This document shows, piece after piece, positions 8,801 through 54,160 of a stretch of DNA of 64,000 nt (positions within the stretch are counted from its first letter, which is position 1; every line of letters begins with the position of its first letter). The notes under the pieces were generated by a model that was given only the letters and a program-made list of their open reading frames with translations, was not told the origin of the DNA and ran no database searches. The stretch is from Patescibacteria group bacterium. Its GTDB lineage: Bacteria; Patescibacteriota; Minisyncoccia; Minisyncoccales; GWA2-38-27. Made by a program: the position numbers and the translations under genes. The stretch is from positions 9,909-73,908 of the forward strand of contig JAHCRG010000006.1 of assembly GCA_020148045.1 (NCBI GenBank), written 5' to 3'.

Positions 8801-9145
8801 ATGAAAAAATTAATTCTATTTGGAGCAATAGCAGTATTTCTAATGGCATCGATAGGAACAGTAGTAGCTAAGGGACCATATAATCCAAATGCAATTGACA
8901 AAAATCCAAATCTAAATGATTTTAGTGAGATTTGGCCCACAGCATTAGATTTACAGACGAATCTGGATGGCGACTTTGTTCAGTGGTTTCACAACAGACA
9001 CTACATTTGTCAATGCACAGATGGTATGAATCCAGATGCGATAGCTAGCAAGCTAAGTGAAGGTTGGTTTATATGGCATCCAGCAACAGATGATCCACGC
9101 TACGAATGGTGCAGCAATCATGAATACATCATAAAAATGATTTAA
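8801..9145 (+). CDS. secreted hypothetical protein
   Basis: A signal peptide (MKKLILFGAIAVFLMASIGTVVA), and a W/H/C-containing domain with RYEWCSNH. Confidence 0.5.
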   Translation: MKKLILFGAIAVFLMASIGTVVAKGPYNPNAIDKNPNLNDFSEIWPTALDLQTNLDGDFVQWFHNRHYICQCTDGMNPDAIASKLSEGWFIWHPATDDPRYEWCSNHEYIIKMI

Positions 9146-9887: not shown

Positions 9888-11672
9888 ATGTCAAAAATTT
9901 CTAAAATTTTGATATTGGTTTTGATTATTGGTGGGATGGTTTTTGGATTTGGTTTAAATAAAGGCACAGCTCAGTCAGAGCCGCCTTTTCCAATAATAGA
10001 AAAACCCTTCCCAAAAGCACTTTCGTCTCGATACGTTTCTGATGAAATTATCGTTAAGTTTAAACCAGGAGTATCGGCAGAAAGAATTAGTGAGATTTAT
10101 CAGAAAGAAAAAATTCCTGAAGAAAAATATATTAGCCCCTTCGTTGGTTTTCGAGTTCTTAAAATCCCTGCCGGCAAAACCGTCGAAGAAATGGTTAATA
10201 TTTTCCAAAAAAATCCGTTAGTTGAATATACGGAGCCAAATTCGATTTGTTATGCCTTTATGATTCCCGCTGATGAACATTATCCTTGGCAATGGAACTT
10301 TGATGATGATAATACCATTAATACCGGTGGTGCTTCTTCTAATCCCTATGGTGGGGCAAACGGAGGAGGGATTAGAATGGAGGAGGCTTGGGATATTGAT
10401 ACTACAGCTCCTTTATATGGGGGTGATCCTAATGTGGTAGTGGCTGTGTTAGATACCGGGATTGCTTATGAAAATTATAAAGGGTTTTGCCGCTCTCCGG
10501 ATTTTGCTGGTTCATATCCTGGTTTTACTGCTGGTTATGATTTTGCTAATAGTGATATCCATCCTAATGATGATGAGGGTCACGGTACCCATGTAGCTGG
10601 AACAATAACCAGCTCTACTAATAATGACTACGTAGCTGGAATTGCTTTTAATTCGACCTTGATGCCAGTTAAAGTTCTCAACCGAAAAGGAGAAGGAACA
10701 GCCGATTGGGTAGCCGATGGGATTTATTATGCTGTCAATAATGGGGCAGATATTATTAATATGAGTTTAGGTTGGCCACCGGGTTACGATCCAGGAGAAA
10801 CAGTTTATAATGCGATTAAATACGCTTACGATCATGGCGTTGTTCAAATTGCCGCCACTGGCAATGAGAGTGCCAGCCAAATTTCTTACCCGGCTAAATA
10901 TTCAGAAGTTATTGCGGTTGGGGCGACAAGATATGATGAGACGCGAGCTTCTTACTCTAATTACGGAGAAGGAATTGACTTGGTTGCTCCTGGGGGAGAT
11001 TTGGGTGTTGACCAAAATGAAGATGGATATGGTGATGGAGTTTGCCAGATTACATTTTCTGGAGGAGCCTGCAGCTGGTATTACGTTTGGGCGGATGGAA
11101 CCTCAATGTCCACTCCTCATGTTTCAGGGGTTGTTGCTTTGCTTTTGGCTCAAGATTCTAATCGAACCCCTGATGACATAAGAAATATTCTTCAAAGTAC
11201 TGCCGAAGATAAAGGAACAACTGGTTGGGATCAATACTATGGACACGGAATCGTTGATGCCTATGCTGCCTTGACTTACGCACCAGCTGTTTCTATTAGC
11301 TTAACCACTGATGGCTTGGTGGAATTTGGAACTTTACCATTGGAGGCAACAGCAGACAGTTCTGAAGATGTTCAAACTGTCAGTATTAATATAGGACCAG
11401 CTAACTTAGATGTTAGAAGCACGGTTTTTTCCGACAATGGAAACAGTTGGTCTCTGGGAACAACCAATGGTGACAATCAGGTAGTTTGGGAATATTCAGA
11501 GGATGGAAGCATTTGGACTATTTTTGAAGCTCCCGATACCCTGTATGATTTGGCTGATAATGTGGCCCAAGGAAATACTCAAAATCTATATTTACAGATA
11601 ACTATGCCCACTGAAACCTCTTCTTCAAATCAATATAGTTCAGTAGTAACTATTGTTGCAACTGAACCTTAA
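9888..11672 (+). CDS. secreted subtilisin-like serine protease (peptidase S8) with C-terminal surface-protein-like domain
   Basis: Catalytic motifs VAVLDTGI (Asp), HGTHVAGT (His) and GTSMSTPHVSG (Ser) are present. ATG at 9888, which follows aaggga, is preferred over 9864. Confidence 0.9.
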   Translation: MSKISKILILVLIIGGMVFGFGLNKGTAQSEPPFPIIEKPFPKALSSRYVSDEIIVKFKPGVSAERISEIYQKEKIPEEKYISPFVGFRVLKIPAGKTVEEMVNIFQKNPLVEYTEPNSICYAFMIPADEHYPWQWNFDDDNTINTGGASSNPYGGANGGGIRMEEAWDIDTTAPLYGGDPNVVVAVLDTGIAYENYKGFCRSPDFAGSYPGFTAGYDFANSDIHPNDDEGHGTHVAGTITSSTNNDYVAGIAFNSTLMPVKVLNRKGEGTADWVADGIYYAVNNGADIINMSLGWPPGYDPGETVYNAIKYAYDHGVVQIAATGNESASQISYPAKYSEVIAVGATRYDETRASYSNYGEGIDLVAPGGDLGVDQNEDGYGDGVCQITFSGGACSWYYVWADGTSMSTPHVSGVVALLLAQDSNRTPDDIRNILQSTAEDKGTTGWDQYYGHGIVDAYAALTYAPAVSISLTTDGLVEFGTLPLEATADSSEDVQTVSINIGPANLDVRSTVFSDNGNSWSLGTTNGDNQVVWEYSEDGSIWTIFEAPDTLYDLADNVAQGNTQNLYLQITMPTETSSSNQYSSVVTIVATEP

Positions 11673-16809: not shown

Positions 16810-17601
16810 ATGAGCAAGGTTTCGCGAGTCAAAGTTGATAAAAATTTAAAAAGGACAATTTTGGAGGCAGTGGATGGGGTAAGTGGGTTTAAGAAATTTA
16901 TCAAGAAAGGAGATGTGGTTTTGCTAAAGCCGAACTTTAATACTGCTGACCCTTTTCCAGGTTCCACTGATTTTAAGTTTTTGAAAACTGTAGTTGAATT
17001 GGTTTACGAATACAAGCCTAAGATGGTGCTGCTTGGCGATTCTTCTACAATGAGTTTGAACACACGGAGAGTAATGAAGAAATTAAGAATCTTTGATTTG
17101 GAGAAGATGAAGAGGCCTCCCCGGGTTTATGTTTTTGATGAGAGACCCTGGGTAAAAAAAGAGATACCAAATGGTAAATATCTAAAAAGAGTTTATATTA
17201 CTCATTATTTAGATAGAGCTGATAAATTGATTCTTCTTCCTTGTTTGAAAACTCACTTTTTGTCTCAGTTTACCGGGAGCTTGAAGCTTTCCATGGGCTT
17301 TATAAAACCTTTTCACCGGGTTCACTTTCATATAAAACATCTTCAAGAGAAAATAGCAGAATTAAACAAAATTATTCATCCTGATTTGGTTATTATGGAT
17401 GCTCGGAAGTGTTTTGTTAATAAAGGACCGGGACAAGGCAAGCTTGCTGAGCCGAATTTAATTTTAGCTTCAACAAGCAGGATTGCTATTGATGTTGAAG
17501 GGATAAAAATAATTCAGAGCTTTAGAGGAAATTCCCTTAAAGGTATTGACCCTTGGGAATTACCCCAAATTAAAAAAGCAAAAGAATTCGGAATTAAATA
17601 A
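16810..17601 (+). CDS. DUF362 domain protein
   Basis: GDVVLLKPNFNTADPFPGSTD is typical of DUF362. Confidence 0.65.
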   Translation: MSKVSRVKVDKNLKRTILEAVDGVSGFKKFIKKGDVVLLKPNFNTADPFPGSTDFKFLKTVVELVYEYKPKMVLLGDSSTMSLNTRRVMKKLRIFDLEKMKRPPRVYVFDERPWVKKEIPNGKYLKRVYITHYLDRADKLILLPCLKTHFLSQFTGSLKLSMGFIKPFHRVHFHIKHLQEKIAELNKIIHPDLVIMDARKCFVNKGPGQGKLAEPNLILASTSRIAIDVEGIKIIQSFRGNSLKGIDPWELPQIKKAKEFGIK

Positions 17602-17605
17602 AATT

Positions 17606-17800
17606 ATGGAATGTAAAAAGGAAGAAAATTTAAAAGATTGTCCTTGTACTTATCCCAATTGTCCCAGAAAAGGGACTTGTTGCGATTGTATAAAATATCA
17701 TTGGCAGACGGGTGAACTCCCAGCTTGTTTTTTCTCTTCAGAAGCAGAGAAAACTTTTGACCGCTCAATTGAAAAATTTATTGAAGACCAAAAGAAATAG
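17606..17800 (+). CDS. small Cys-rich protein (CPCTYPNCPRKGTCCDC)
   Basis: A 64-aa ORF starting at ATG 17606 just after the DUF362 stop, with eight Cys. Confidence 0.55.
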   Translation: MECKKEENLKDCPCTYPNCPRKGTCCDCIKYHWQTGELPACFFSSEAEKTFDRSIEKFIEDQKK

Positions 17801-17809
17801 CTATTGGGC

Positions 17810-17837
17810 TTGACAAAGGTTTTTGATGGACTAATAT
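17810..17837 (+). promoter_or_regulatory. sigma70-type promoter
   Basis: TTGACA (17810-17815), a 16-nt spacer, then TAATAT (17832-17837). Confidence 0.6.
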
Positions 17838-17850
17838 AGAAAAAAGAAAA

Positions 17851-17961
17851 ATGTTTGGAGATATAACTAATAAATTGAATAATCATAACCTCTTAATCGG
17901 TTTACTTGGCTTGCTTCTTTTGCTGGAGAAGCCGATTGGGAGGTTTAACAAAAATTTCTAA
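17851..17961 (+). CDS. candidate Leu-rich leader peptide (36 aa)
   Basis: My translation is MFGDITNKLNNHNLLIGLLGLLLLLEKPIGRFNKNF. Nine Leu fall within residues 14-25. The ORF overlaps attenuator segments 1 and 2 and is below the ORF-track size cut-off. Confidence 0.45.
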   Translation: MFGDITNKLNNHNLLIGLLGLLLLLEKPIGRFNKNF

Positions 17962-18019
17962 TTTCTAATTACTAATTTCTAAACATTGAACCTCCCAACC
18001 AGGAGGTTCTTTCGTTTTT
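17887..18019 (+). promoter_or_regulatory. four-segment terminator/antiterminator (attenuator-like) leader
   Basis: Segment 1 (aacctcttaatcgg) pairs with segment 2 (ccgattgggaggtt). GGGAGGTT (17938-45) pairs with AACCTCCC (17989-96). GAACCTCC (17988-95) pairs with GGAGGTTC (18002-09), which is followed by tttcgttttt. Confidence 0.6.
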
Positions 18020-18072
18020 GTACCTTGAAAAGTAAATAAGAAAAGGAATCTTTTTAAAGAAAGGAGCGAAAA

Positions 18073-18645
18073 ATGAGTAGCGAAGCACAAACAGCTGTTT
18101 TGAAGGGAAGATTAGAGGGCATTGGTTATGAGTTGTCAGAGGACGAATTGATATTAGTTTGTAGAGGATTCGATAGCCTGGTTCAAGTAAAAGCTCCTCT
18201 TAATAATGGCGATCTCTATATGCTTGTCCAGGAAGTTCTTGTTCAAGAAGAGACAACAGCGGAGGGCTTGATTACAGTAAAAAGGGTTGATTATCGCCGT
18301 GAGCATGATGTTTTATCTGCTACAGTAGTTCTTTCCCAAAACGAAGTTGAATTTGAAGCCACTGGAAGTGGAGGTGGGCCAATTGCCTCGGTTTGGACGG
18401 CTATTACGGGGGCTGTTTTCGAGAAAGGAATTCTTTTAGGAGAAGTAAAGCTTAAAGATTTTAAGATTTTTGCAGAGCCAGGGGGAGTTGAGGCTAAGGG
18501 ATTATCTACTATTTGTATGGAGAATGACGGTAAGATAGGTTATGCTAGAGGAGTTGACCAAGATATTATTTTAGCTTCTGCCAAGGCCATAGTCTCAGCC
18601 ATTAACCATCTCCTGTATGTTCCTGTAGAATCTGCGCTCGTTTAG
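18073..18645 (+). CDS. stand-alone LeuA allosteric (dimerisation/regulatory) domain protein
   Basis: ATGSGGGPIASVWTAI and GYARGVDQDIILASAKAIVSAINHLL match the C-terminal regulatory domain of 2-isopropylmalate synthase. The catalytic TIM-barrel part is absent. The RBS is aaaggagcg. Confidence 0.65.
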   Translation: MSSEAQTAVLKGRLEGIGYELSEDELILVCRGFDSLVQVKAPLNNGDLYMLVQEVLVQEETTAEGLITVKRVDYRREHDVLSATVVLSQNEVEFEATGSGGGPIASVWTAITGAVFEKGILLGEVKLKDFKIFAEPGGVEAKGLSTICMENDGKIGYARGVDQDIILASAKAIVSAINHLLYVPVESALV

Positions 18646-18656
18646 CACCAACAAGC

Positions 18657-18695
18657 AAAGGCTCAAGTGAAATTCTTGGGCCTTTTTATTTTTGA
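18657..18695 (+). terminator. intrinsic terminator
   Basis: The stem aaaggctcaag/cttgggccttt is followed by a T-run. Confidence 0.75.
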
Positions 18696-18772: not shown

Positions 18773-18847
18773 ATGTGTGAGACTTGTGGTTGTACCCCAG
18801 CAGAACCAGAAAAAGAAGGAGAAGCAGAGGAAGAAAAAGAAGAATAA
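18773..18847 (+). CDS. candidate 24-aa Cys-rich/acidic micro-ORF
   Basis: My translation is MCETCGCTPAEPEKEGEAEEEKEE. It is preceded by a TAGAAT -10 box (18720-18725) and an AAACGGTCGG motif (18736-18745). Confidence 0.3.
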   Translation: MCETCGCTPAEPEKEGEAEEEKEE

Positions 18848-18996
18848 AATATGGCTTTGTGTTGTAGAAGATAATTCCTCGAGAACTGTTCTCGGGAAGT
18901 TTGTTTTGTGTTAAACCCCGTAGAAGAATTTTGAATTGAGCTTTGCTCAATCAATACTATTGTTCAAAATTTCTCTACGGGGTAAAATAATTTAAT

Positions 18997-25358: not shown

Positions 25359-26489
25359 TTAATCTCCAGGAGGAGGTAAAGTAATATCCTCGGGTTCGAA
25401 GATAACTTTTCTCTCACCTTCTTCCACTATACCAAGATCAATTAAATGGTAATTAGATTTTTCGCCAGTATTAATAGTCCTCTCTACAGCAGATGGGGGC
25501 ACGAACATGTAGTAACCAATTCCCCAGTTAAAAGTTGTAAGACAATCTTCCAGCCCTACCCCAAGTTCTCGCATAAACAGAAATAAAGGAGGTATTTCTT
25601 TTACCCAAGTATGGATACGGTAAGTGAGCCGCCGTTTATCAAAGGCTATCTTGCTTACACCACTACCAGTACCTGGCAAAAGAGCATGGATTTCTATCTC
25701 GTTTTCTAATAGCGCTTCAACCAGAGCTACATATGACCTGGTAGGAATAAGGGCTTCTTCTCCAAGCGTCCTACCAGTGGCAGGTAATTTGGTAAGAAAT
25801 TTTTCTGGAAGCATTAGAGCACGTTTGATAACAAGCGAAATCCCGTTGGCGTGTAAGCCCGAAGACGTAACACCGATTATATGATCACCCGGTTGCAATT
25901 TTTCTCCAGTGATAAGTCGATGGGATGGAGCAATAATCCCGGTAACGCAACCACTCAAAGAGGGAGCACTTTTTACGGGTCGCTTAGATTTGATTAAATA
26001 ACGGAGAGAAGGAGACTCGCCTGCGGGTAGGGCCATACCAACCATTTTGCATACTTTTAAAAAACCATTAGCTAAATCTTCGCTCCTTTTTTCATCTTGA
26101 AACCACTCGCTATCACCGGCAGCGACTTCGTCAGTGTAGACAACCGGCATTGCCCCTTGAGCAATTACATCATTCACCGCCATCAGGGCAGTATCCACGC
26201 CGATGTCATTATAGAAAGTTTTACCTGTGCCAGAAAACTGATACATCCATTCAGAAATCCAATTCTTATTTCCAAGACCTTCCTGAGTGTTGCACCAGAG
26301 GTGAGGATGGTTGCCCCGGTATTCATAGACAGCTCCATGGGGGTCTATTAAATCCATACGAATAAAGACCTTCCGTCGATTGGGAAAACTTAATGTTTGC
26401 TTTCCTGTTCTTATCATTGCTCGTTTAAAAGCTTCGATTTTACTGTAATCTACGCCAGCTTGAGCATAAGCACTTTTTTTCTTTGCCAT
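25359..26489 (-). CDS. AIR synthase-related (PurM-like) protein, divergent
   Basis: GVDTALMAVNDVIAQGAMPVVYTDEVA and LPAGESPSL match the PurM/AIRS fold. The canonical DGVGTK motif is replaced by QEGLGNK. ATG at 26489 follows aaaggg. Confidence 0.65.
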   Translation of the reverse strand: MAKKKSAYAQAGVDYSKIEAFKRAMIRTGKQTLSFPNRRKVFIRMDLIDPHGAVYEYRGNHPHLWCNTQEGLGNKNWISEWMYQFSGTGKTFYNDIGVDTALMAVNDVIAQGAMPVVYTDEVAAGDSEWFQDEKRSEDLANGFLKVCKMVGMALPAGESPSLRYLIKSKRPVKSAPSLSGCVTGIIAPSHRLITGEKLQPGDHIIGVTSSGLHANGISLVIKRALMLPEKFLTKLPATGRTLGEEALIPTRSYVALVEALLENEIEIHALLPGTGSGVSKIAFDKRRLTYRIHTWVKEIPPLFLFMRELGVGLEDCLTTFNWGIGYYMFVPPSAVERTINTGEKSNYHLIDLGIVEEGERKVIFEPEDITLPPPGD

Positions 26490-26500
26490 TTTTATCCCTT

Positions 26501-26743
26501 TCAATGATACCGTATTGTCATACTTGTAATTCCCCTTGATCCTTTTCGAGGTGTAAAGCCAAAATATTTTTTGAATTCATAAATGGCCATCTCGTCTATT
26601 TTACGTACTCCATTTGAAGAATACCACCGGCCCTCAGTTTTTTTTAATTCTGCTTTTATAGGCCAACGGCGAATCCAAGATTCAGAAGAAGACTCGCTTG
26701 GATTGTCTCTTGTTACAATAAATTCCTTTGTGATTATCTTCAT
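26501..26743 (-). CDS. hypothetical 80-aa protein, tightly coupled upstream of the PurM-like gene
   Basis: The RBS is aaagggg. Its stop lies 11 nt before the PurM-like ATG. I recognise no motif. Confidence 0.4.
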   Translation of the reverse strand: MKIITKEFIVTRDNPSESSSESWIRRWPIKAELKKTEGRWYSSNGVRKIDEMAIYEFKKYFGFTPRKGSRGITSMTIRYH

Positions 26744-26791
26744 TTTCTACCCCTTTCAATTATAAATGAACAGTTTTCTTTTTCCAATGCT

Positions 26792-26819
26792 ATTTTAATT
26801 ATTATGATAAATTTGTCAA
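26792..26819 (-). promoter_or_regulatory. sigma70-type promoter (minus strand)
   Basis: The minus strand reads TTGACA, a 16-nt spacer, then TAAAAT. Confidence 0.6.
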
Positions 26820-26832
26820 CTGAAATTTAAAG

Positions 26833-26861
26833 AAAGCCCGTTTTATAAAACGGGCTTTTTT
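26833..26861. terminator. bidirectional intrinsic terminator after purL
   Basis: The sequence is AAAGCCCG-ttttataaaa-CGGGCTTTTTT. Confidence 0.8.
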
Positions 26862-26890
26862 ATCAACAAGATTGTGTTTCGTTGATACTA

Positions 26891-29800
26891 TTAATGTTCT
26901 TCACACCATTTTCTGGCGTTTTGGAAAAGTTTTAGCCAGGGGGAAACTTTGAGCTTTGGCCATTTTCTTGACCAATAAAACCATTGCCAGAAAGTGAATA
27001 ATCTTTCAGGGTGAGGCATCATTGCCAAGTGCCTACCATCAGGTGAACACAAAGCAGTAATACCCAGGATTGAACCATTGGGATTGTAAGGATATCTCAT
27101 TGTGGGAACTCCGTCATCATCAACGAAGCGAAGGGGAGCCAAGTTTTTCTCCAGGACCTCCTTAAGAATCGAGTCGCTAGGGAAGAAACAACGACCCTCG
27201 CTGTGAGCTACCCAGATACCGAGAACTGAGCCCTCCATATCCTGGAGCATTAACGCTGGGCTGGGCATGACTTTAACTGCTATAGGTCGCGATTCGAAGA
27301 TTCTTGATTCATTCCGGACAAAACGCGGCTGTTTTATTAGCTCAATGCCTGGCCGAGGTATCCAACCGAGAAAAGGCATAACCTGAGAGCCATTACAGAC
27401 ACCCAGAGAAAAAGTGTCTGGCCGAGAGTAGAAGTTTTCAAACTCTTTTTGGACTCGCTCGTTGGTCTTAATTACCCAAGCCCAACCTTTGCCTGCATCC
27501 AAAACATCTGCGTAACTGAAGCCACCTGAGAAAGCAATGCCTCGAAAATCATTCAAGCTAATTCTTCCTTCAACCAAATCAGTCATGGTAACATCCCAGG
27601 CCTCAAAACCGGCAGCATCGAAAGCTCCAGCCATTTCCTTATCTCCGTTAGTGCCTACTTCACGGAGAATAGCCACCTTTGCTTGCTTAACTTTCATCTT
27701 TATCTCCGGGGTTGCTTCGGGCTTAAAGCGAAGCTCTAGAGGAAGGCCTTTCCGGTCATAAGTATTTTTCCTTTCAGCTTCTACACAGGCCGGATTGGCT
27801 TGGAGTTTATCCAGCCGATAGGAAGTTTCTTGCCATATGTTTCGAAGTTTTCTCATATCTTCAGACAAGACAGGCTGACCTTTGTGATGAATCTTTATCT
27901 GATAATCATTAGTGGTACGTCCGAGTATATGGCAGCAACCCTCTAGTCCTTGGCCTAGCAAGAATCTCAGGATTCTCCTTTCATCTTTGGGCAGATATTC
28001 AATGACTAGGCCTAACTCTTCTGAGAAAAGTATAGGTAGGATGTTTGTTTTCCAAATAGGCCTGCGAAAGCTAATATACAAACCACAGTTTCCCGCAAAA
28101 GCCATCTCTAAGAGGCAGGTTATTAAACCACCATCAGAACGGTCATGGCCAGCTAAGATTAAATCCCTCCTGATTAGCTCTTGAATCGCTTCAAATCCCT
28201 GACGCAAAATTTGGGGATTTTCAACATCAGGGGCTTGATTACCAATCTGATTGTGAACCTGAGCTAAGGCTGAGCCCCCGAGTCGCTGCTTGTCCCTGGA
28301 AAGGTCAATTAACATCAATTTGCTTTGACCCGGCATTTTAATATCTGGGGTGACAACTCTAGTAATATCTGGGCAGGGGGCAAAACTAATCATTTGGACA
28401 GTGCCTGGTGACTTAACAGGATGTTTCTGGTCATTTTTGGTAGTCCAGGCAGTCATTGAGACGGAATCCTTGCCAACTGGAATTCGCAGTCCCAACTTAC
28501 GGCAGAGACCGCTAGTTGCTTTAACTGCTTCATAAAGCCGGGCATCTTCACCTGGCTGCTTGCAAGGCCATTGCCAGGTAGCTGAAAAGTTAATTGACTC
28601 AAAGCTTTCAACCAGTGCCCAGACCAGATTGGTTAAAGATTCACCTAGGCTCATTCTTCCTCCGGCTTTTGGATTAACCAGACCTTTAATTGGCTGTTCA
28701 CCAATAGCCATTGCTGTACCAGTAGTTACAAAGAAGCTATCAGCAGTTACAGCACAGTCAGCCAAGGTAAGTTGGCAGGGCCCAACTGTTTGTTGCTGAG
28801 CAACCAAACCACCTACTGAACGGTCAACCTTGCGAGTTAGGAATTGTTTTGAAGCAACCTTTGGCAAACGAAGAACTCGCTCTAAGGCCTTCATAACTGT
28901 TAATCCTTCTGGTAGTTGAAGTGGTTTAAGTTGGCGGAGTATCTTTTGGCACTTGATAGTCATCTGAGGTAAATTAGCCAGCAGGAAATTCATATCAACA
29001 TCAATGGGTATTTTTTGCTCCCGAGGTGCGTCATCGGGGGCTGAGCGGTCAGTGACCACCAATTTCCCATCACCAGTAATTTCTCCAACCACATACATTG
29101 GGCAACGATTTCGCTGACAGATTTTTCGCAATGTTTCTAATCTCTCTGGCCAGACAATCATTACCATACTCTCTTGGGACTCATTGCACCAGAAGACATA
29201 GACAGGCATGGTTTTATCTCCGCAGGGAATCTCCCGGAGTTCATAGCGGGCTCCAGCAGGAAAACTAATTTCAGGTAGGGCTACACTTTCACCACCAGCT
29301 CCTAAGTCAGTAGTGCTGACAATAGGATTTTCGTCTCCTAATTCTGAGCAGGCCTGAAAGACATCATTCATTCGATTTTCCATTTCCGGATTAGCCCGCT
29401 GGACTGAATTCCAGTCAAGTTCTTCCTCTTGAGCACCAGCATCTTTGCTTGAACCAGAACCTCCACCCAAACCAATCCAATATCTGTCTCCACCCAACTG
29501 AACAACTGGATACCCCTTTTCGGGCTTCATTTTATAGGCATGTTTCTCGTCAATATAGCCAAAGTTCCCAGCCACCATACAAGTTTTTCTCCAGCCATGG
29601 TGTTCTTTGCCAATCATTTGTTCAAACGAAGTAAAAGAGCCCAAGATTACTGGCTGTCCGAACATGTTGCCATAGTAACTGGCTCCATTGGAAGCTTGGA
29701 TGATAATCTCTAAAGGTGTTTGGAAACGCTTGGGATGGGACGCATACTCTTTTTCCCAAAGTAAAATATAATCTGGGATAAAGAGATTGGCTACATAATA

Positions 29801-30826
29801 ACAAGCTAAACCAACAGTCACGATGCCTCCTCTGCCAGTACCCATTGGATCGCGGATAACACCCCCGAGACCGGTTGCTGAACCATCATAGGCGTCGATA
29901 GCTGTTGGATGGTTATGGGTCTCGACCTTGGCAAGAATGCAGGAGCTTATGGGTCGGCAGGCAAAAGGCGAGGGCCTGGTAGGGTCTGATGTCACAAGTG
30001 CTGTTACCGGCCTCCCGGAAAGCACAGCAGCATTATCAGTATAGGCAACCAGGACATTAGCTTGATTTGCTTCGGTCGTTGCCTTAATCATGCCAAAAAG
30101 AGTGTCGGGCATTTCTTGGCCGTCAATAATATATTTTCCGTTGAAACGGTGATGCCGGCAGTGCTCAGAATTAAGCTGGCCAAACATGAACAATTCAGCA
30201 TCAGTAGGATTACGCCCTATCTTTTTGCAGTACTGATGGATATACTCTGCCATTTGTTCATCTATTGCTAAGCCTAACTGCTCATTAGCTTGTTTAATAG
30301 CCTTGACTCCTTTTTCCAGAAGAGGAATTAGCTGAACTGGTGCTGGTTTTACATCTATCTCAAAGCTGGTTACTGGCTCTGGATAAACTTGTTCTGTCAT
30401 TCGGTCATGAATCAAGGCATAAATTTGCTTCCGTTGGGCAGAAGTAAGAAGAGAATTCCCTCTGGTTGTAATCTGAAAACGTCGGTTAGTTTCTATTCTG
30501 GTAACTAAGTCTAATTCACAAGCATGGCAGATAGAAACTGCGCTGGTGCTTTGGGGAGAAACCCAGGCTAAACGAGGACCAGCCTCGAATACTGGTTCAG
30601 CTAATCTGGTCTGACTTCCGAATTTTTCTGGTTCAAAAGTCTCACGCAGTAGCCCTTCCAAGCGCTCTAATTCTCCGGACCTAAAGGGCCTCTTAGAATC
30701 AACATAGAATCTTCGTTCAATCTTAACCCCTTCAATTAATGGCGAAACTTCTTTCTTAAGATCTTTTAACCATAACTGTTCTTCAATCTCCCAAAGTTTT
30801 GAAGTTCGAAAACGTGAAACAATCAT
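26891..30826 (-). CDS. purL: phosphoribosylformylglycinamidine synthase, single-chain large form
   Basis: A 1311-aa protein with FGAM synthase core motifs and a C-terminal amidotransferase (GVCNGSQ nucleophile, MMPHPER). Confidence 0.95.
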   Translation of the reverse strand: MIVSRFRTSKLWEIEEQLWLKDLKKEVSPLIEGVKIERRFYVDSKRPFRSGELERLEGLLRETFEPEKFGSQTRLAEPVFEAGPRLAWVSPQSTSAVSICHACELDLVTRIETNRRFQITTRGNSLLTSAQRKQIYALIHDRMTEQVYPEPVTSFEIDVKPAPVQLIPLLEKGVKAIKQANEQLGLAIDEQMAEYIHQYCKKIGRNPTDAELFMFGQLNSEHCRHHRFNGKYIIDGQEMPDTLFGMIKATTEANQANVLVAYTDNAAVLSGRPVTALVTSDPTRPSPFACRPISSCILAKVETHNHPTAIDAYDGSATGLGGVIRDPMGTGRGGIVTVGLACYYVANLFIPDYILLWEKEYASHPKRFQTPLEIIIQASNGASYYGNMFGQPVILGSFTSFEQMIGKEHHGWRKTCMVAGNFGYIDEKHAYKMKPEKGYPVVQLGGDRYWIGLGGGSGSSKDAGAQEEELDWNSVQRANPEMENRMNDVFQACSELGDENPIVSTTDLGAGGESVALPEISFPAGARYELREIPCGDKTMPVYVFWCNESQESMVMIVWPERLETLRKICQRNRCPMYVVGEITGDGKLVVTDRSAPDDAPREQKIPIDVDMNFLLANLPQMTIKCQKILRQLKPLQLPEGLTVMKALERVLRLPKVASKQFLTRKVDRSVGGLVAQQQTVGPCQLTLADCAVTADSFFVTTGTAMAIGEQPIKGLVNPKAGGRMSLGESLTNLVWALVESFESINFSATWQWPCKQPGEDARLYEAVKATSGLCRKLGLRIPVGKDSVSMTAWTTKNDQKHPVKSPGTVQMISFAPCPDITRVVTPDIKMPGQSKLMLIDLSRDKQRLGGSALAQVHNQIGNQAPDVENPQILRQGFEAIQELIRRDLILAGHDRSDGGLITCLLEMAFAGNCGLYISFRRPIWKTNILPILFSEELGLVIEYLPKDERRILRFLLGQGLEGCCHILGRTTNDYQIKIHHKGQPVLSEDMRKLRNIWQETSYRLDKLQANPACVEAERKNTYDRKGLPLELRFKPEATPEIKMKVKQAKVAILREVGTNGDKEMAGAFDAAGFEAWDVTMTDLVEGRISLNDFRGIAFSGGFSYADVLDAGKGWAWVIKTNERVQKEFENFYSRPDTFSLGVCNGSQVMPFLGWIPRPGIELIKQPRFVRNESRIFESRPIAVKVMPSPALMLQDMEGSVLGIWVAHSEGRCFFPSDSILKEVLEKNLAPLRFVDDDGVPTMRYPYNPNGSILGITALCSPDGRHLAMMPHPERLFTFWQWFYWSRKWPKLKVSPWLKLFQNARKWCEEH

Positions 30827-30841
30827 ATCTTTTCTCCTTTC

Positions 30842-30871
30842 CCAACCTATGGTTGGTCAGCCGTAGGCTGA
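30842..30871 (-). repeat. double-hairpin 30-mer, copy 1 (5' UTR of purL)
   Basis: The plus strand reads ccaacctatggttggtcagccgtaggctga. The minus strand reads TCAGCC-TAC-GGCTGA-CCAACC-ATA-GGTTGG. It is identical to 46006-46035. Confidence 0.95.
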
Positions 30872-30949
30872 TTTTCCAAAAAATATTGTCAATGAGCTAC
30901 TTGCCCCGCACCGAAGTTGTTCTGGTGCGGAGTTCGCATACGATACTCA

Positions 30950-31011
30950 ACCATAGAAAATTTTATATTGTTTGTCAAATTTTTTGACAAAGTTTGGAAA
31001 TTTGCTAAGAT
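30950..31011. promoter_or_regulatory. divergent purL/purC promoters sharing a 21-bp palindrome
   Basis: The plus strand has TTGACA (30984-89), a 16-nt spacer, then TAAGAT. The minus strand has TTGACA (30978-73), a 17-nt spacer, then TATGGT. The palindrome is tttgtcaaa-ttt-tttgacaaa (30971-30991). Confidence 0.55.
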
Positions 31012-31069
31012 AATTCATTAACTAATAGTTCTTTGAGTTTTTAATAATTGAATTAGAAAGGAGATAGAG

Positions 31070-31978
31070 ATGAAGCAGACGATAATAATAAGAACAATGG
31101 TTTCAGGACACAAACGCAGACAGGGTAAGGTTAGAGATATTTATAATCTCGGAGATGGCAGATTAGTTATTATTGCCACTGACCGGATTTCGGCTTTTGA
31201 TGTGGTTATGGAAAATGGTATTCCTGATAAAGGAAAAGTACTGACTGCACTTACTAAGTTCTGGCTGCAAAAACTTCAGTCTGTGGCTTCGCCGCACCAT
31301 CTTGTGAGTACAGAGCTTGATCGTCTTCCAGAGGAGTTTCAAAGAGAATGTTTTGAAGGCAGAGTTATGGTTTGTCGAGAAGCAGAGCCCTTACCTGTTG
31401 AGTGTGTGGTCCGAGGATACTTAGCTGGTAGTGGTTGGAAAGAGTATCAAAAGACAGGTCAGATTTGTGGCATTAAGCTTCCTTCAGGATTAAAGCAATG
31501 TGACAAATTGCCAGAACCAATTTTTACTCCAGCAACTAAAGCTCAAGCTGGCCATGATGAGAATATTACATTTGAAGATGTTTGTAAGTTATTAGCTAAT
31601 CGATCCCTAGCAGAAAGCTTGAGAGATAGAAGCATAAATCTATACCGAAAGGCGCATGATTTTGCGTTGAAGCGGGGTGTTATCATTGCTGATACCAAGT
31701 TTGAGTTTGGTAGAGTTGATGGTACAATTCTCCTTATTGACGAGGTATTGACTCCAGATTCCAGTAGGTTTTGGCCTGTTGATGAATATGAACCAGGTCA
31801 TGACCAGGTAAGCTTTGACAAACAGTTTGTCCGTAACTATTTAGAGACGCTCTGCGAGAATGGCAAATGGGATAAAACTCCTCCTGGGCCAAGATTGCCT
31901 GACACTATTGTTGCAGGAACATGGAACAGATATCGAGAACTTTACAGACGTTTAACGAGAAAAGATTTAAAGCCCTGA
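31070..31978 (+). CDS. purC: phosphoribosylaminoimidazole-succinocarboxamide (SAICAR) synthase
   Basis: GKVRDIY and ATDRISAFD are present. It is the long form of about 300 aa. The RBS is aaaggagat. Confidence 0.9.
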   Translation: MKQTIIIRTMVSGHKRRQGKVRDIYNLGDGRLVIIATDRISAFDVVMENGIPDKGKVLTALTKFWLQKLQSVASPHHLVSTELDRLPEEFQRECFEGRVMVCREAEPLPVECVVRGYLAGSGWKEYQKTGQICGIKLPSGLKQCDKLPEPIFTPATKAQAGHDENITFEDVCKLLANRSLAESLRDRSINLYRKAHDFALKRGVIIADTKFEFGRVDGTILLIDEVLTPDSSRFWPVDEYEPGHDQVSFDKQFVRNYLETLCENGKWDKTPPGPRLPDTIVAGTWNRYRELYRRLTRKDLKP

Positions 31979-53674: not shown

Positions 53675-53697
53675 TTAGAAATTAGAAATTTTAGAAC
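53675..53697 (+). repeat. heptamer repeats TTAGAAA x2(+1) abutting the rplW start
   Basis: The sequence is ttagaaa ttagaaa tt ttagaac. The unit is the reverse complement of the ATTTCTA array at 17954-17981. Confidence 0.8.
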
Positions 53698-53698
53698 C

Positions 53699-54160
53699 AT
53701 GGGTTTATTTGATTTTTTCAAAAAAAAGAAAAAAATAGAAAAGAAAAAAGTTGAGAAAAAACCAGAGAAGAAGATAGACCAACCTACGGTTGGCCAGCCG
53801 AAGGATGGGAAGAAAGTAGAGGCCCGTCCTCTACCCGAAGTTAAACCAGCAGTTAAGAGGCCAAAGAAGAGAATTTTAGGCAAGTCATCTCAAATTTTAT
53901 ATTCTCCTCATGTAACAGAGAAGACAACTGCGATAGAGGGAGAAAATAAATATGTTTTTAAAGTTTCGCCAAGAACTAATAAAAATGAAATAAAAAAAGC
54001 AATTGAGGGTTTATACGGAGTAAGTATAATTAGTGTTAAAATTATTAATATTCCTAAAAGAAAAAGGAGATTAGGAAAGCAGAAGGGATGGAGAAAGGGA
54101 TACAAAAAAGCAATTGTAAAGATAAAGAAGGGGCAGAAGATTGAGATTTTGCCTCGTTAA
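53699..54160 (+). CDS. rplW: 50S ribosomal protein L23 with ~60-aa N-terminal extension
   Basis: The core starts near ILYSPHVTEKT. No in-frame ATG, GTG or TTG lies between 53699 and the core. Confidence 0.85.
   Translation: MGLFDFFKKKKKIEKKKVEKKPEKKIDQPTVGQPKDGKKVEARPLPEVKPAVKRPKKRILGKSSQILYSPHVTEKTTAIEGENKYVFKVSPRTNKNEIKKAIEGLYGVSIISVKIINIPKRKRRLGKQKGWRKGYKKAIVKIKKGQKIEILPR
53779..53834 (+). repeat. GC-rich palindromic elements embedded in frame in the rplW extension
   Basis: 53779-53808 (ccaacctacggttggccagccgaaggatgg) matches the 30-mer at about 25/30 positions. 53816-53834 (gtagaggcccgtcctctac) shares a 15-mer with the terminator at 19931. Confidence 0.85.

What the first reader, a model, noticed from the sequence alone, without database searches (positions are those of the whole stretch)
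17810..18072. Leu-rich leader peptide and four-segment attenuator upstream of an orphan LeuA regulatory-domain gene
A 36-codon ORF (17851-17961) lies downstream of a TTGACA-16-TAATAT promoter. Residues 14-25 read LLIGLLGLLLLL, 9 Leu in 12.

The ORF spans segment 1 (17887-17900), which pairs over 14 bp with segment 2 (17932-17945). Segment 2 can instead pair with segment 3 (17938-45 with 17989-96). Segment 3 can instead form a terminator with segment 4 (17988-95 with 18002-09, then TTTCGTTTTT).

This is the architecture of ribosome-mediated amino-acid attenuators such as leuL and trpL. The regulated gene encodes only the leucine-binding allosteric domain of 2-isopropylmalate synthase, without the catalytic barrel. 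No leu biosynthesis genes are visible here. That points to a leucine-sensing function decoupled from biosynthesis. I am not aware of such attenuators being described for CPR-type genomes.
Basis: partly seen in the sequence, partly recalled or inferred. Interest (0 to 1): 0.75.

Follow-up and report, generated by a model that had tools for sequence, protein, structure and literature searches.

The report
Leucine attenuator before truncated LeuA gene
A small-genome (Patescibacteria/CPR) bacterium has kept a classical leucine-sensing leader-peptide transcription switch in front of a gene that is only the leucine-binding tail of the enzyme LeuA, so the control circuit and sensor domain of a lost biosynthetic gene appear to have been kept for another use.

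Summary
Window 17810-18019 has a promoter and a 36-codon ORF with 9 Leu in 12 codons. It also has three mutually exclusive helices: 1:2 of 17 bp, 2:3 of 13 bp (not 8), and a 3:4 terminator followed by a U-tract. The fold z-score is -5.96.

The same four-segment design, with Leu/Ile/Val-rich ORFs, occurs in three other lineages:
- GC-rich contigs L012 and L013. In L012 the next gene starts like ilvD.
- Upstream of P0048 (L016/L017), the closest full-length leuA whose upstream DNA could be read. Its peptide is MKSPIFHTSLLLGLLLLLRNGGRFTRA.
- Close relatives of the window.

Base pairing is kept through two-sided changes. No Rfam family matches.

The downstream 190-aa protein corresponds to LeuA residues ~337 to the end: three linker helices plus the regulatory domain. 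There is no catalytic barrel anywhere in the 64 kb. Seven alleles are intact, with dN/dS 0.2-0.8, so the gene is maintained. NCBI names the organism a Patescibacteria group bacterium.

Most likely this is a leuA leader-gene unit that lost its catalytic part and now expresses a leucine-binding domain under leucine starvation. Its partner and role are unknown, and nothing here is experimentally tested.

The parts
17810..17837 (+). Sigma-70-type promoter, TTGACA (17810-17815), 16-nt spacer, TAATAT (17832-17837). The predicted transcription start is about 17843-17846, which leaves only about 5-8 nt before the leader ATG.
   Evidence: 10 of 12 consensus matches. TTGACAAA is invariant in the window, L004, L012 and L013 alignment, and a TTGACA is also present in L014 and L016. 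The start site is inferred from the -10 position.
17851..17961 (+). Leader ORF of 36 codons, MFGDITNKLNNHNLLIGLLGLLLLLEKPIGRFNKNF. It has no Shine-Dalgarno sequence.
   Evidence: The ORF is kept in frame in L004 (MPKDMVNKLNNYNLLIDLLGLLLLLGKPIGRSNENF) and in L014. Analogous ORFs occur in L012, L013 and L016.
17890..17925 (+). Regulatory codon run, codons 14-25, with 9 Leu codons (CTC TTA . . TTA CTT . TTG CTT CTT TTG CTG). It lies in segment 1 and in the apical loop between segments 1 and 2.
   Evidence: densest Leu run among 234 small ORFs.
17887..17903 (+). Segment 1, the 5' arm of the 17-bp 1:2 hairpin that acts as anti-antiterminator and likely pause hairpin.
17929..17948 (+). Segment 2. 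Positions 17929-17945 pair with segment 1. Positions 17936-17948 (UUGGGAGGUUUAA) pair alternatively with segment 3. It encodes KPIGRF.
   Evidence: The core UUGGGAGG is invariant in window, L004, L012 and L013.
17955..17982 (+). Spacer made of four 7-nt tandem units (TTTCTAA TTTCTAA TTACTAA TTTCTAA). It carries the leader stop codon (17959-17961) and forms the loop of the antiterminator.
   Evidence: It is present in L002, L003, L004 and L014, reverse-complemented in L005, and absent from L012, L013 and L016.
17986..18009 (+). Segments 3 and 4. Positions 17986-17998 pair with segment 2 to form the antiterminator. Positions 17988-17995 x 18002-18009 form the 8-bp terminator stem.
18010..18019 (+). 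U-tract of the attenuator terminator (TTTCGTTTTT).
18060..18066 (+). Shine-Dalgarno sequence AAAGGAG of the regulated gene.
   Evidence: Read directly from the sequence.
18073..18645 (+). Regulated gene: a 190-aa protein equal to LeuA residues ~337 to the C-terminus. It comprises three linker-subdomain helices plus the beta-beta-beta-alpha x2 allosteric/dimerisation domain, with no catalytic TIM barrel.
   Evidence: Seven intact alleles with dN/dS 0.18-0.80.
18657..18695 (+). Intrinsic terminator ending the monocistronic unit.

Best explanation
This is a working ribosome-mediated (leader-peptide) transcription attenuator that responds to leucyl-tRNA supply.

Proposed mechanism (inferred, not shown):
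1. Transcription starts a few bases before the 36-codon leader ORF.
2. With leucine plentiful, the ribosome runs through the nine Leu codons to the UAA at 17959. There it covers segment 2, or it leaves and the 17-bp 1:2 hairpin reforms. Segment 3 then pairs with segment 4, and RNA polymerase terminates at 18010-18019.
3. With charged tRNA-Leu scarce, the ribosome stalls within 17890-17925. It holds segment 1, and free segment 2 pairs over 13 bp with segment 3 and the terminator loop. The terminator cannot form, and the 190-aa gene is transcribed.

The unit most likely descends from a leader-leuA operon head whose first ~340 codons (the catalytic barrel) were lost. The retained product is the leucine-binding regulatory and dimerisation domain with its helical linker. 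It is kept by selection, presumably as a free-standing leucine sensor with an unknown partner.

Shown here: the sequence anatomy, the alternative pairings, their conservation and covariation, the domain content of the protein, and selection on it. Inferred: stalling, read-through, leucine binding and the evolutionary route.
For: Anatomy and stability:
- Searches show the elements and a fold z-score of -5.96.

Ribosome-mask folding of the transcript ending before segment 4:
- With no ribosome, P(2:3) = 0.00.
- With the A site at codons 10-21, P(2:3) is 0.77-0.99.
- With the A site at codons 26 to the stop, P(2:3) is 0.00-0.02.
- L012 and L013 show the same pattern.

Independent occurrences of the same design:
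- L012 (MQTLSLLPIAIIVLVLVVLLIKEPLAVGRDTG) and L013 (MQTLSLLLVAIIILVLIELLSIKEPLAVGRKPG) were found with the terminator pattern.
- L016/L017, upstream of the full-length LeuA P0048, carry the peptide MKSPIFHTSLLLGLLLLLRNGGRFTRA.
- All six full leaders have 1:2 (-12 to -25 kcal/mol), 2:3 (-15 to -23) and 3:4 (-10 to -17.5) helices, with the Leu/Ile/Val codons between segments 1 and 2.

Covariation in a hand-made structural alignment:
- 97-98% of cells are canonical pairs.
- Columns changed on both sides: 4 in 1:2, 1 in 2:3 and 1 in 3:4. With L016 included the counts are 7, 5 and 4.
- A covariance model built from the window group alone finds L013 (E 2.5e-4) and L012 (E 0.04).

The protein:
- Pfam reports LeuA_dimer only.
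- NCBIfam leuA_bact matches positions 331-494 only.
- It is 40-51% identical to the last ~180 residues of full-length LeuAs.
- The AF2 model has pLDDT 90.8, and its best structural matches are M. tuberculosis LeuA (1sr9, leucine-bound 3fig) and the LiCMS regulatory domain 3f6g.
- All columns invariant among 41 LeuA regulatory domains are kept: A83, G102, P103, G138 and N178.
- Seven alleles lack stops or frameshifts even at dS > 1.3, and dN/dS is 0.18-0.80.

Conserved context:
- The order DUF362-(DUF6485)-leader-gene-HD recurs in related contigs.
Against: - There is no expression, termination or binding data.
- The leader ORF has no Shine-Dalgarno sequence and a predicted 5' UTR of only about 5-8 nt, so its translation is assumed.
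- At equilibrium on the full transcript the terminator wins at every ribosome position in the window (P >= 0.96), so antitermination depends on co-transcriptional kinetics. This is usual for attenuators, but it is a model.
- In L014 the predicted 2:3 probability during stalls is only 0.1-0.4. In L004 the 2:3 helix forms even without a ribosome.
- There are only about four independent lineages. The structural alignment was fitted by hand. Homology between the window leader and the L016 leader is plausible but not proven, and the L016 fold z-score is only -1.95.
- The ilvD identity of the L012 downstream gene rests on 17 residues and my recollection of the IlvD N-terminal motif. Tool checks gave nothing.
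- Another full-length LeuA relative (P0049, L018) has no leader.
- Whether the genome lacks leuBCD or a separate catalytic LeuA was not checked.
Confidence: 0.75

Rival explanations
1. Decaying relic. The leader and the truncated leuA fragment are non-functional leftovers of a leu operon being lost from a reduced genome. The hairpins persist only because the deletion is recent.
For: The protein is exactly a C-terminal piece of LeuA. Patescibacteria generally lack amino-acid biosynthesis (general knowledge). No BCAA genes are seen in the window. dN/dS among the closest alleles is fairly high, up to 0.80.
Against: All seven alleles are intact, including L005 at dS > 1.3 with dN/dS 0.25-0.33. The gene has its own strong Shine-Dalgarno sequence and its own terminator. 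Family-invariant residues are retained. The terminator is still conserved in the most diverged allele, L005. The gene order is conserved across several contigs.
Confidence: 0.1
2. The small ORF encodes a hydrophobic membrane micro-protein. The downstream hairpin is simply the terminator of that gene or of the upstream DUF362-DUF6485 operon, with no amino-acid sensing.
For: The peptides are hydrophobic, and the L012 and L013 versions have about 18 consecutive hydrophobic residues. No terminator lies between the DUF6485 stop (17800) and the leader, so the 3:4 hairpin may also end upstream transcripts.
Against: The hydrophobic stretch in the window peptide is only 12-13 residues, short for a membrane span. 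What is conserved across lineages is the Leu/Ile/Val composition and the segment-2 sequence, not the peptide sequence. Three mutually exclusive helices co-vary. The element sits in front of a full-length leuA (L016/L017), of the leuA-derived gene studied here, and of a gene in L012 whose first 17 residues resemble IlvD, which is the signature of attenuators. A protein search with the peptides found no family.
Confidence: 0.05
3. The switch is operated by a trans factor rather than by the ribosome. Candidates are a T-box/tRNA, a metabolite riboswitch, or an RNA-binding protein that recognises the 7-nt repeats (HutP- or TRAP-like), possibly the LeuA-domain protein itself acting in autoregulation.
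For: The spacer has four 7-nt repeats with the period of HutP sites (the comparison is from memory). The regulatory-domain fold gives weak Foldseek hits to dsRNA-binding domains and uS5, and a weak Pfam hit to Ribosomal_S5, E 0.0075.
Against: No T-box or riboswitch family matches, even at E <= 10. The repeats are absent from L012, L013 and L016 and are reverse-complemented in L005, so they behave as an orientation-independent spacer. The conserved ORF with cognate codons is explained only by ribosome sensing.
Confidence: 0.05

Closest known systems
leu operon leader (leuL) of Escherichia coli / Salmonella and the trpL class of ribosome-mediated attenuators
   Same: A short ORF with a run of cognate codons, four segments with 1:2 / 2:3 / 3:4 alternatives, an intrinsic terminator before the structural gene, and a first structural gene in the relatives that is leuA (L016).
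   Different: There is no sequence or covariance-model similarity: Rfam Leu_leader is not among the hits even at E <= 10. The run has nine Leu codons of five different kinds instead of four consecutive identical ones (the latter from memory). The 5' UTR is nearly absent. The regulated product has no catalytic domain.
Leucine-rich attenuator peptide of the Staphylococcus aureus ilv-leu operon (PMC5794164) and the ilvB / ilvBNC leaders of Actinobacteria (PMC1262725, PMC11857589)
   Same: Leader peptides rich in Leu/Ile/Val that control branched-chain amino-acid genes by terminator/antiterminator choice. L012 and L013 are of this mixed Ile/Leu/Val type.
   Different: Different phyla and unrelated sequences. 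Those leaders control complete biosynthetic operons.
Attenuators upstream of leuS and trpS in Streptomyces (PMC1262725)
   Same: A precedent for classical leader-peptide attenuators that control a gene which is not a biosynthetic enzyme of the sensed amino acid.
   Different: Their targets are aminoacyl-tRNA synthetases with an obvious link to tRNA charging. Here the target is an isolated allosteric domain.
Regulatory (allosteric/dimerisation) domain of 2-isopropylmalate synthase LeuA (M. tuberculosis 1SR9, leucine-bound 3FIG) and of Leptospira citramalate synthase (3F6G)
   Same: The same fold by Foldseek (E 1e-8 to 1e-6), the same Pfam family, and the same family-invariant residues.
   Different: It is encoded as a free-standing 190-aa protein, with only the three-helix linker in front and no HMGL-like barrel.

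Membership tests
Ribosome-mediated leader-peptide transcription attenuators (trpL/leuL/ilvL class) | A short translatable ORF with a cluster of codons for the sensed amino acid | tested here: met
   9 Leu in 12 codons, the top of 234 small ORFs. Relatives have Leu- or Ile/Leu/Val-rich ORFs. Translation itself was not tested, and there is no Shine-Dalgarno sequence.
Ribosome-mediated leader-peptide transcription attenuators (trpL/leuL/ilvL class) | Mutually exclusive helices 1:2, 2:3 (antiterminator) and 3:4 (terminator) | tested here: met
   Helices of 17, 13 and 8 bp in the window. The same three helices are present in six leaders.
Ribosome-mediated leader-peptide transcription attenuators (trpL/leuL/ilvL class) | 3:4 is an intrinsic terminator (G+C-rich stem followed by a U-tract) upstream of the regulated gene | tested here: met
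   GAACCTCC-CAACCA-GGAGGTTC followed by TTTCGTTTTT, 54 nt before the start codon.
Ribosome-mediated leader-peptide transcription attenuators (trpL/leuL/ilvL class) | Regulatory codons placed so that a stalled ribosome frees segment 2, while a ribosome at the stop codon masks it | tested here: met
   In-silico ribosome masking gives P(2:3) of 0.93-0.99 for A-site codons 11-21 and 0.00-0.02 from codon 26 to the stop. This is a model, not an experiment.
Ribosome-mediated leader-peptide transcription attenuators (trpL/leuL/ilvL class) | Conservation of the ORF and compensatory changes in the helices among relatives | tested here: met
   97-98% of cells are canonical pairs. Two-sided changes occur in 4, 1 and 1 columns, or 7, 5 and 4 with L016. 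There are only about four lineages, and the alignment was made by hand.
Ribosome-mediated leader-peptide transcription attenuators (trpL/leuL/ilvL class) | Read-through increases when the cognate amino acid or charged tRNA is limiting | not testable with these tools
   This needs Term-seq, reporter assays or in-vitro coupled transcription-translation.
Rfam leader families (Leu_leader RF00512, Phe_leader RF01859, others) and T-box | Covariance-model score at or above the family gathering threshold | tested here: not met
   There are no gathering-level hits in 64 kb. The best hit is Phe_leader at 23.2 bits against a threshold of 55, and it covers the terminator only. Leu_leader and T-box are absent even at E <= 10.
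2-isopropylmalate synthase LeuA | N-terminal HMGL-like catalytic TIM barrel | tested here: not met
   Pfam finds LeuA_dimer only. tblastn with LeuA sequences (P0048, P0049, P0050 and the fragment P0047) hits only 18061-18630. NCBIfam leuA_bact scores 71 bits against a cut-off of 599.
2-isopropylmalate synthase LeuA | C-terminal allosteric/dimerisation domain (beta-beta-beta-alpha x2) with family-invariant residues | tested here: met
   Pfam E 6e-20. The AF2 model (pLDDT 90.8) matches 1sr9, 3fig and 3f6g. A83, G102, P103, G138 and N178 are invariant.
2-isopropylmalate synthase LeuA | Leucine binding by the regulatory domain | not testable with these tools
   It scores better against LeuA models than against the citramalate synthase model, which is only a hint. 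This needs ITC or DSF with the purified protein.

The most novel reading that the evidence does not exclude
The free-standing LeuA regulatory domain is a new kind of amino-acid signalling protein in an auxotrophic CPR symbiont. It would be produced only when tRNA-Leu charging drops (via the attenuator), and its leucine-free or leucine-bound dimer would act in trans on a partner. Candidate partners are the conserved neighbouring HD-domain hydrolase, an uptake or proteolysis system, or even a host LeuA. This would give a two-layer leucine sensor built entirely from the salvaged control parts of a lost enzyme. The fast-evolving, recombining N-terminal helical part (L004/L005-type against window-type) would be the partner interface.
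Probability: 0.3. Interest if true: 0.75.

Novelty: new variant of a known kind. Interest (0 to 1): 0.55.

Why it matters
Leader-peptide attenuation is textbook biology. My literature search found nothing on it for Patescibacteria/CPR. Here it controls an enzyme's allosteric domain that has been separated from the enzyme.

If the attenuator works, three things follow:
- These reduced, probably auxotrophic organisms couple transcription and translation.
- They use intrinsic terminators.
- They monitor leucyl-tRNA supply.

That gives a concrete and testable handle on how CPR bacteria sense nutrient supply from their hosts. It would also be a clear case of the regulatory parts of a pathway, both the cis RNA switch and the ligand-binding domain, being kept and possibly re-used after the catalytic part was lost. 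The leader is not in Rfam, and together with the L012, L013 and L016 examples it could seed a new family.

Tried and rejected
1. Known RNA families. Rfam at gathering level on the whole window, and at E <= 10 on 17600-18300 and on L004, L012 and L013, gave only sub-threshold hits to the terminator.

2. The 7-nt repeats as a protein-binding array (HutP- or TRAP-like). Rejected: the repeats are absent from L012, L013 and L016 and are reverse-complemented in L005. A second TTTCTAATTTCTAA at 53675-53688 (-) lies just before the ORF after the L4-like gene (presumed rplW) and looks like chance in AT-rich DNA.

3. A protein search with the concatenated leader peptides found nothing.

4. Other 'stand-alone' LeuA_dimer proteins. 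P0011 is a frameshifted full leuA. P0007 is the end of a full-length LeuA on a short contig, with the upstream in-frame HQHGVL motif. P0024 and P0042 begin inside the LeuA 'YEIMRPEDVGF' region and look like split genes. Many other short hits are contig fragments. Whether genuine stand-alone relatives exist outside this clade is unresolved.

5. The genome-contig scan found only distant LeuAs.

6. P0049/L018 has no leader.

7. Leader conservation against gene divergence in L004 is uninformative, because L004 is a recombinant.

8. Equilibrium folding of the complete transcript does not show the switch. The truncated-transcript analysis does.

9. A PDB sequence search gave no hit. The fold search was needed instead.

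10. Confirmation of ilvD in L012 by tools failed, because only 17 residues are on the contig.

11. The afdb50 fold library was unavailable.

12. P0220, a full-length LeuA in the cluster of P0047 (the best-scoring relative in the profile search; by BLASTP P0220 is 45% identical, P0048 41%), could not be fetched because the look-ups were exhausted.
Full report
**1. What is in the sequence**

The region 17806-18072 lies between a DUF6485 gene (17606-17800) and a 190-codon gene (18073-18645).

- Promoter: TTGACA-16-TAATAT at 17810-17837.
- Leader ORF: 36 codons at 17851-17961, encoding MFGDITNKLNNHNLLIGLLGLLLLLEKPIGRFNKNF.
- Terminator: GAACCTCC/GGAGGTTC followed by TTTCGTTTTT at 17988-18019.
- Fold: RNA 17840-18025 folds at -54.1 kcal/mol against -31.0 +/- 3.9 for dinucleotide shuffles, z = -5.96.
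- Leu density: the ORF is the most Leu-dense of the 234 small ATG ORFs of the window. It has 9 of 12 and the next best has 7 of 12, with a proteome Leu frequency of 9.5%.

- Helix 1:2 is 17 bp, 17887-17903 x 17929-17945, -24.7 kcal/mol.
- Helix 2:3 is 13 bp, UUGGGAGGUUUAA 17936-17948 x UUGAACCUCCCAA 17986-17998, -20.0 kcal/mol. It reaches into the terminator loop.
- Helix 3:4 is 8 bp, -13.4 kcal/mol.

**2. Behaviour in a simple ribosome-mask model**

I folded the transcript that ends just before segment 4 and masked a footprint from A site -15 to A site +13.

- With no ribosome, the 1:2 helix forms and P(2:3) = 0.00.
- With the A site at codons 10-21, P(2:3) is 0.77-0.99. This range includes the first six Leu codons.
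- With the A site from codon 26 to the stop codon, P(2:3) is 0.00-0.02.
- L012 and L013 behave the same way.

On the complete transcript the terminator is favoured at equilibrium at every ribosome position. The switch therefore has to be kinetic, as in the classical systems.

There are caveats. L014 gives only 0.1-0.4 during stalls. L004 forms 2:3 even without a ribosome. The leader ORF has no Shine-Dalgarno sequence, and the predicted 5' UTR is only about 5-8 nt.

**3. Relatives of the locus**

The window is part of a MAG that NCBI names 'Patescibacteria group bacterium'. The 190-aa protein is MBZ9577709.1, annotated as hypothetical, on a 207.5-kb contig.

Close relatives carry the same locus.

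- L014 has DUF362-DUF6485-leader-gene.
- L004 has DUF362-leader-gene.
- L002, L003 and L015 begin inside the spacer repeats. This is probably because a 28-nt tandem repeat breaks k = 31 assemblies.
- In L004 and L014 the ORF stays in frame. Replacements fall outside the Leu run, apart from one Leu-to-Phe change (codon 19) in L014.
- L005 (52% protein identity) still has the terminator, with an A-U to G-U change.

**4. Independent occurrences of the design**

A scan of JGI metagenomes with the terminator pattern returned two contigs of 49-58% G+C. Each has these features:

- a TTGACA...TGGTATAA promoter;
- an ORF rich in Leu, Ile and Val (L012 MQTLSLLPIAIIVLVLVVLLIKEPLAVGRDTG; L013 MQTLSLLLVAIIILVLIELLSIKEPLAVGRKPG);
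- the same UUGGGAGG / CCUCCCAA / GGGAGG triple.

In L012 the next gene begins MKSDVIKRGVERAPHRS, which I recognise as the N-terminus of dihydroxy-acid dehydratase (IlvD). That identification is from memory, and the tools could not confirm it on 17 residues.

P0048 (527 aa) is the closest full-length LeuA whose upstream DNA could be fetched. In both contigs that carry it, it is preceded by three elements:

- a TTGACA-17-CATAAT promoter;
- the ORF MKSPIFHTSLLLGLLLLLRNGGRFTRA;
- segments AAUCUUUCAC / GGUGGAAGAUU / CUUCCACC / GGAAG followed by a U-tract.

The core of this set has changed coordinately from GGAGG/CCUCC to GGAAG/CUUCC in segments 2, 3 and 4.

In a hand-made structural alignment of the six full leaders, plus L005 for the terminator, 97-98% of cells are canonical pairs.

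| Helix | Columns changed on both sides | Same, with L016 included |
|---|---|---|
| 1:2 | 4 | 7 |
| 2:3 | 1 | 5 |
| 3:4 | 1 | 4 |

A covariance model built only from the window group detects L013 (E 2.5e-4), L012 (E 0.04) and L016/L017 (E 0.4). It finds no second copy in the window.

Rfam has no matching family.

**5. The regulated gene**

- Pfam finds only LeuA_dimer, residues 45-181.
- NCBIfam aligns the protein to positions about 331-494 of leuA_bact, at 71 bits against a cut-off of 599. It scores better against the LeuA models than against the citramalate synthase model.
- BLASTP gives 40-51% identity to the last ~180 residues of full-length LeuAs, starting at their residue about 337-343.
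- tblastn with LeuA sequences (three full-length, plus the fragment P0047) finds no catalytic part anywhere in the 64 kb.
- The AF2 model (pLDDT 90.8) shows three helices followed by two beta-beta-beta-alpha units.
- Its best PDB matches are M. tuberculosis LeuA, including the leucine-bound 3FIG, and the isoleucine-bound regulatory domain of Leptospira citramalate synthase.
- All columns invariant across 41 LeuA regulatory domains are retained.
- Seven alleles are intact. Pairwise dN/dS is 0.18-0.80, and it is 0.25-0.33 against L005, where dS exceeds 1.3.

The gene is therefore maintained by selection and is not a fresh pseudogene. A strong Shine-Dalgarno sequence (AAAGGAG) and its own terminator (18657-18695) make it a monocistronic unit.

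**6. Context**

No branched-chain amino-acid gene was found among the scanned ORFs of at least 110 aa from 1 to 47 kb. Two ORFs in that span were not scanned: 8801-9145 and the nested 10810-11181. The scanned ORFs include SMC-like, Ham1, subtilase, NUDIX, GNAT, CutA, DUF362, HD, UDG, ZIP, purL/purC/purM-like, an ABC exporter, an Rrf2-IscS-IscU set and MnmA.

The remaining 17 kb was not scanned with Pfam. NCBI names EF-G, EF-Tu and L2 there, and the translations look like further ribosomal proteins, so it appears to be the elongation-factor and ribosomal-protein cluster. The whole genome was not available to me.

**7. Interpretation**

The simplest account is a leader-leuA operon head whose catalytic two-thirds were deleted. 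The ancestor could be an ancestral gene or an acquired one. The deletion left the Leu attenuator driving the linker and regulatory domain.

The attenuator would turn the gene on when charged tRNA-Leu is scarce. What the free domain then does is unknown. A leucine-sensing dimer with an unidentified partner is my best guess.

Attenuators in front of non-biosynthetic genes have precedents (leuS and trpS in Streptomyces, PMC1262725). Leu-rich leaders of ilv-leu operons are known in several phyla (PMC5794164, PMC1262725). I found no paper linking Patescibacteria with leader-peptide attenuation.

**8. Rivals**

- A decaying relic is contradicted by the intact, selected alleles.
- A membrane micro-protein with an ordinary terminator does not explain the three co-varying alternative helices or the association with leuA and ilvD.
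- A trans factor that binds the 7-nt repeats is contradicted by the loss of the repeats in other lineages and their inversion in L005.

**9. Verdict**

The mechanism is a known kind. The sequence family is new to Rfam. The regulated product, an orphan allosteric domain in a CPR genome, is an unusual variant worth experimental follow-up.

Noticed in passing
L014 1104-1190 and 1212-1240 (relative of window 17806-17850): Relative to the window, L014 has an insertion of about 75 nt with ~20-nt terminal inverted repeats (CCCCGTAGAGAAAATTTGAC...GTCAAATTTCTTCTACGGGG). It is flanked by a duplicated TTGAC and sits right at the -35 box, which looks like a miniature transposable element. A second 24-nt insertion lies between the -10 box and the leader ATG and adds a GAGG upstream of the ATG.
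   Followed up: partly
L004 whole contig, compared with window 17514-18686: L004 is a mosaic. The DUF362 end, the leader and the last ~250 nt of the gene are 90-100% identical to the window. Window 18050-18350, the N-terminal helical half of the protein, is only ~50% identical and resembles L005. The DUF6485 gene is missing. This points to recombination that swaps the N-terminal module of the LeuA-domain protein.
   Followed up: partly
L005 1-40: The spacer between segments 2 and 3 is present as the reverse complement of the window's spacer (TAGAAAT units instead of ATTTCTA). It looks as if it was inverted between the inverted repeats formed by segments 2 and 3. An assembly artefact at the contig end cannot be excluded.
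   Followed up: partly
window 18773-18847 (+): A small ORF, MCETCGCTPAEPEKEGEAEEEKEE, has a Cys-rich head and an acidic tail. It lies between the regulated gene and the HD-domain gene and is followed by a terminator-like hairpin at 18878-18896. The spacing in L002 and L003 is far shorter there (73-107 nt between the two genes against 351 nt in the window), so the region appears to be absent; their sequence at that point was not read.
   Followed up: no
L012 60-300 (-) and L013 30-245 (-): Between the attenuator terminator and the downstream gene, both GC-rich contigs carry a second conserved terminator-like hairpin (GCCUUUCCCCAAUGG...GGGGAAAGGCUUUUUCUU). L012 also has a long G/C-rich hairpin. 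This may be a second regulatory element in tandem with the leader.
   Followed up: no
window 53675-53688 (-) and 53699-54160 (+): The only other TTTCTAATTTCTAA in the window lies, as its reverse complement, immediately upstream of the ORF that follows the L4-like gene (presumed rplW/L23; neither gene was confirmed by a tool). That 153-aa product has a long Lys-rich N-terminal extension.
   Followed up: partly
window 25359-31978: De novo purine biosynthesis genes are present in this Patescibacteria contig: a large single-chain FGAM synthase (1311 aa, 26891-30826, - strand), an AIRS-like protein (25359-26504, - strand) and SAICAR synthetase (31070-31978). This is notable for a lineage usually described as lacking most biosynthesis.
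   Followed up: no
window 18073-18645 (model m3940dc8e8649): The beta-beta-beta-alpha repeats of the regulatory domain give weak structural hits to dsRNA-binding domains (TRBP, Staufen, Dicer partners) and to ribosomal protein uS5. There is also a weak Pfam Ribosomal_S5 hit (E 0.0075). This is probably only fold-level resemblance.
   Followed up: no
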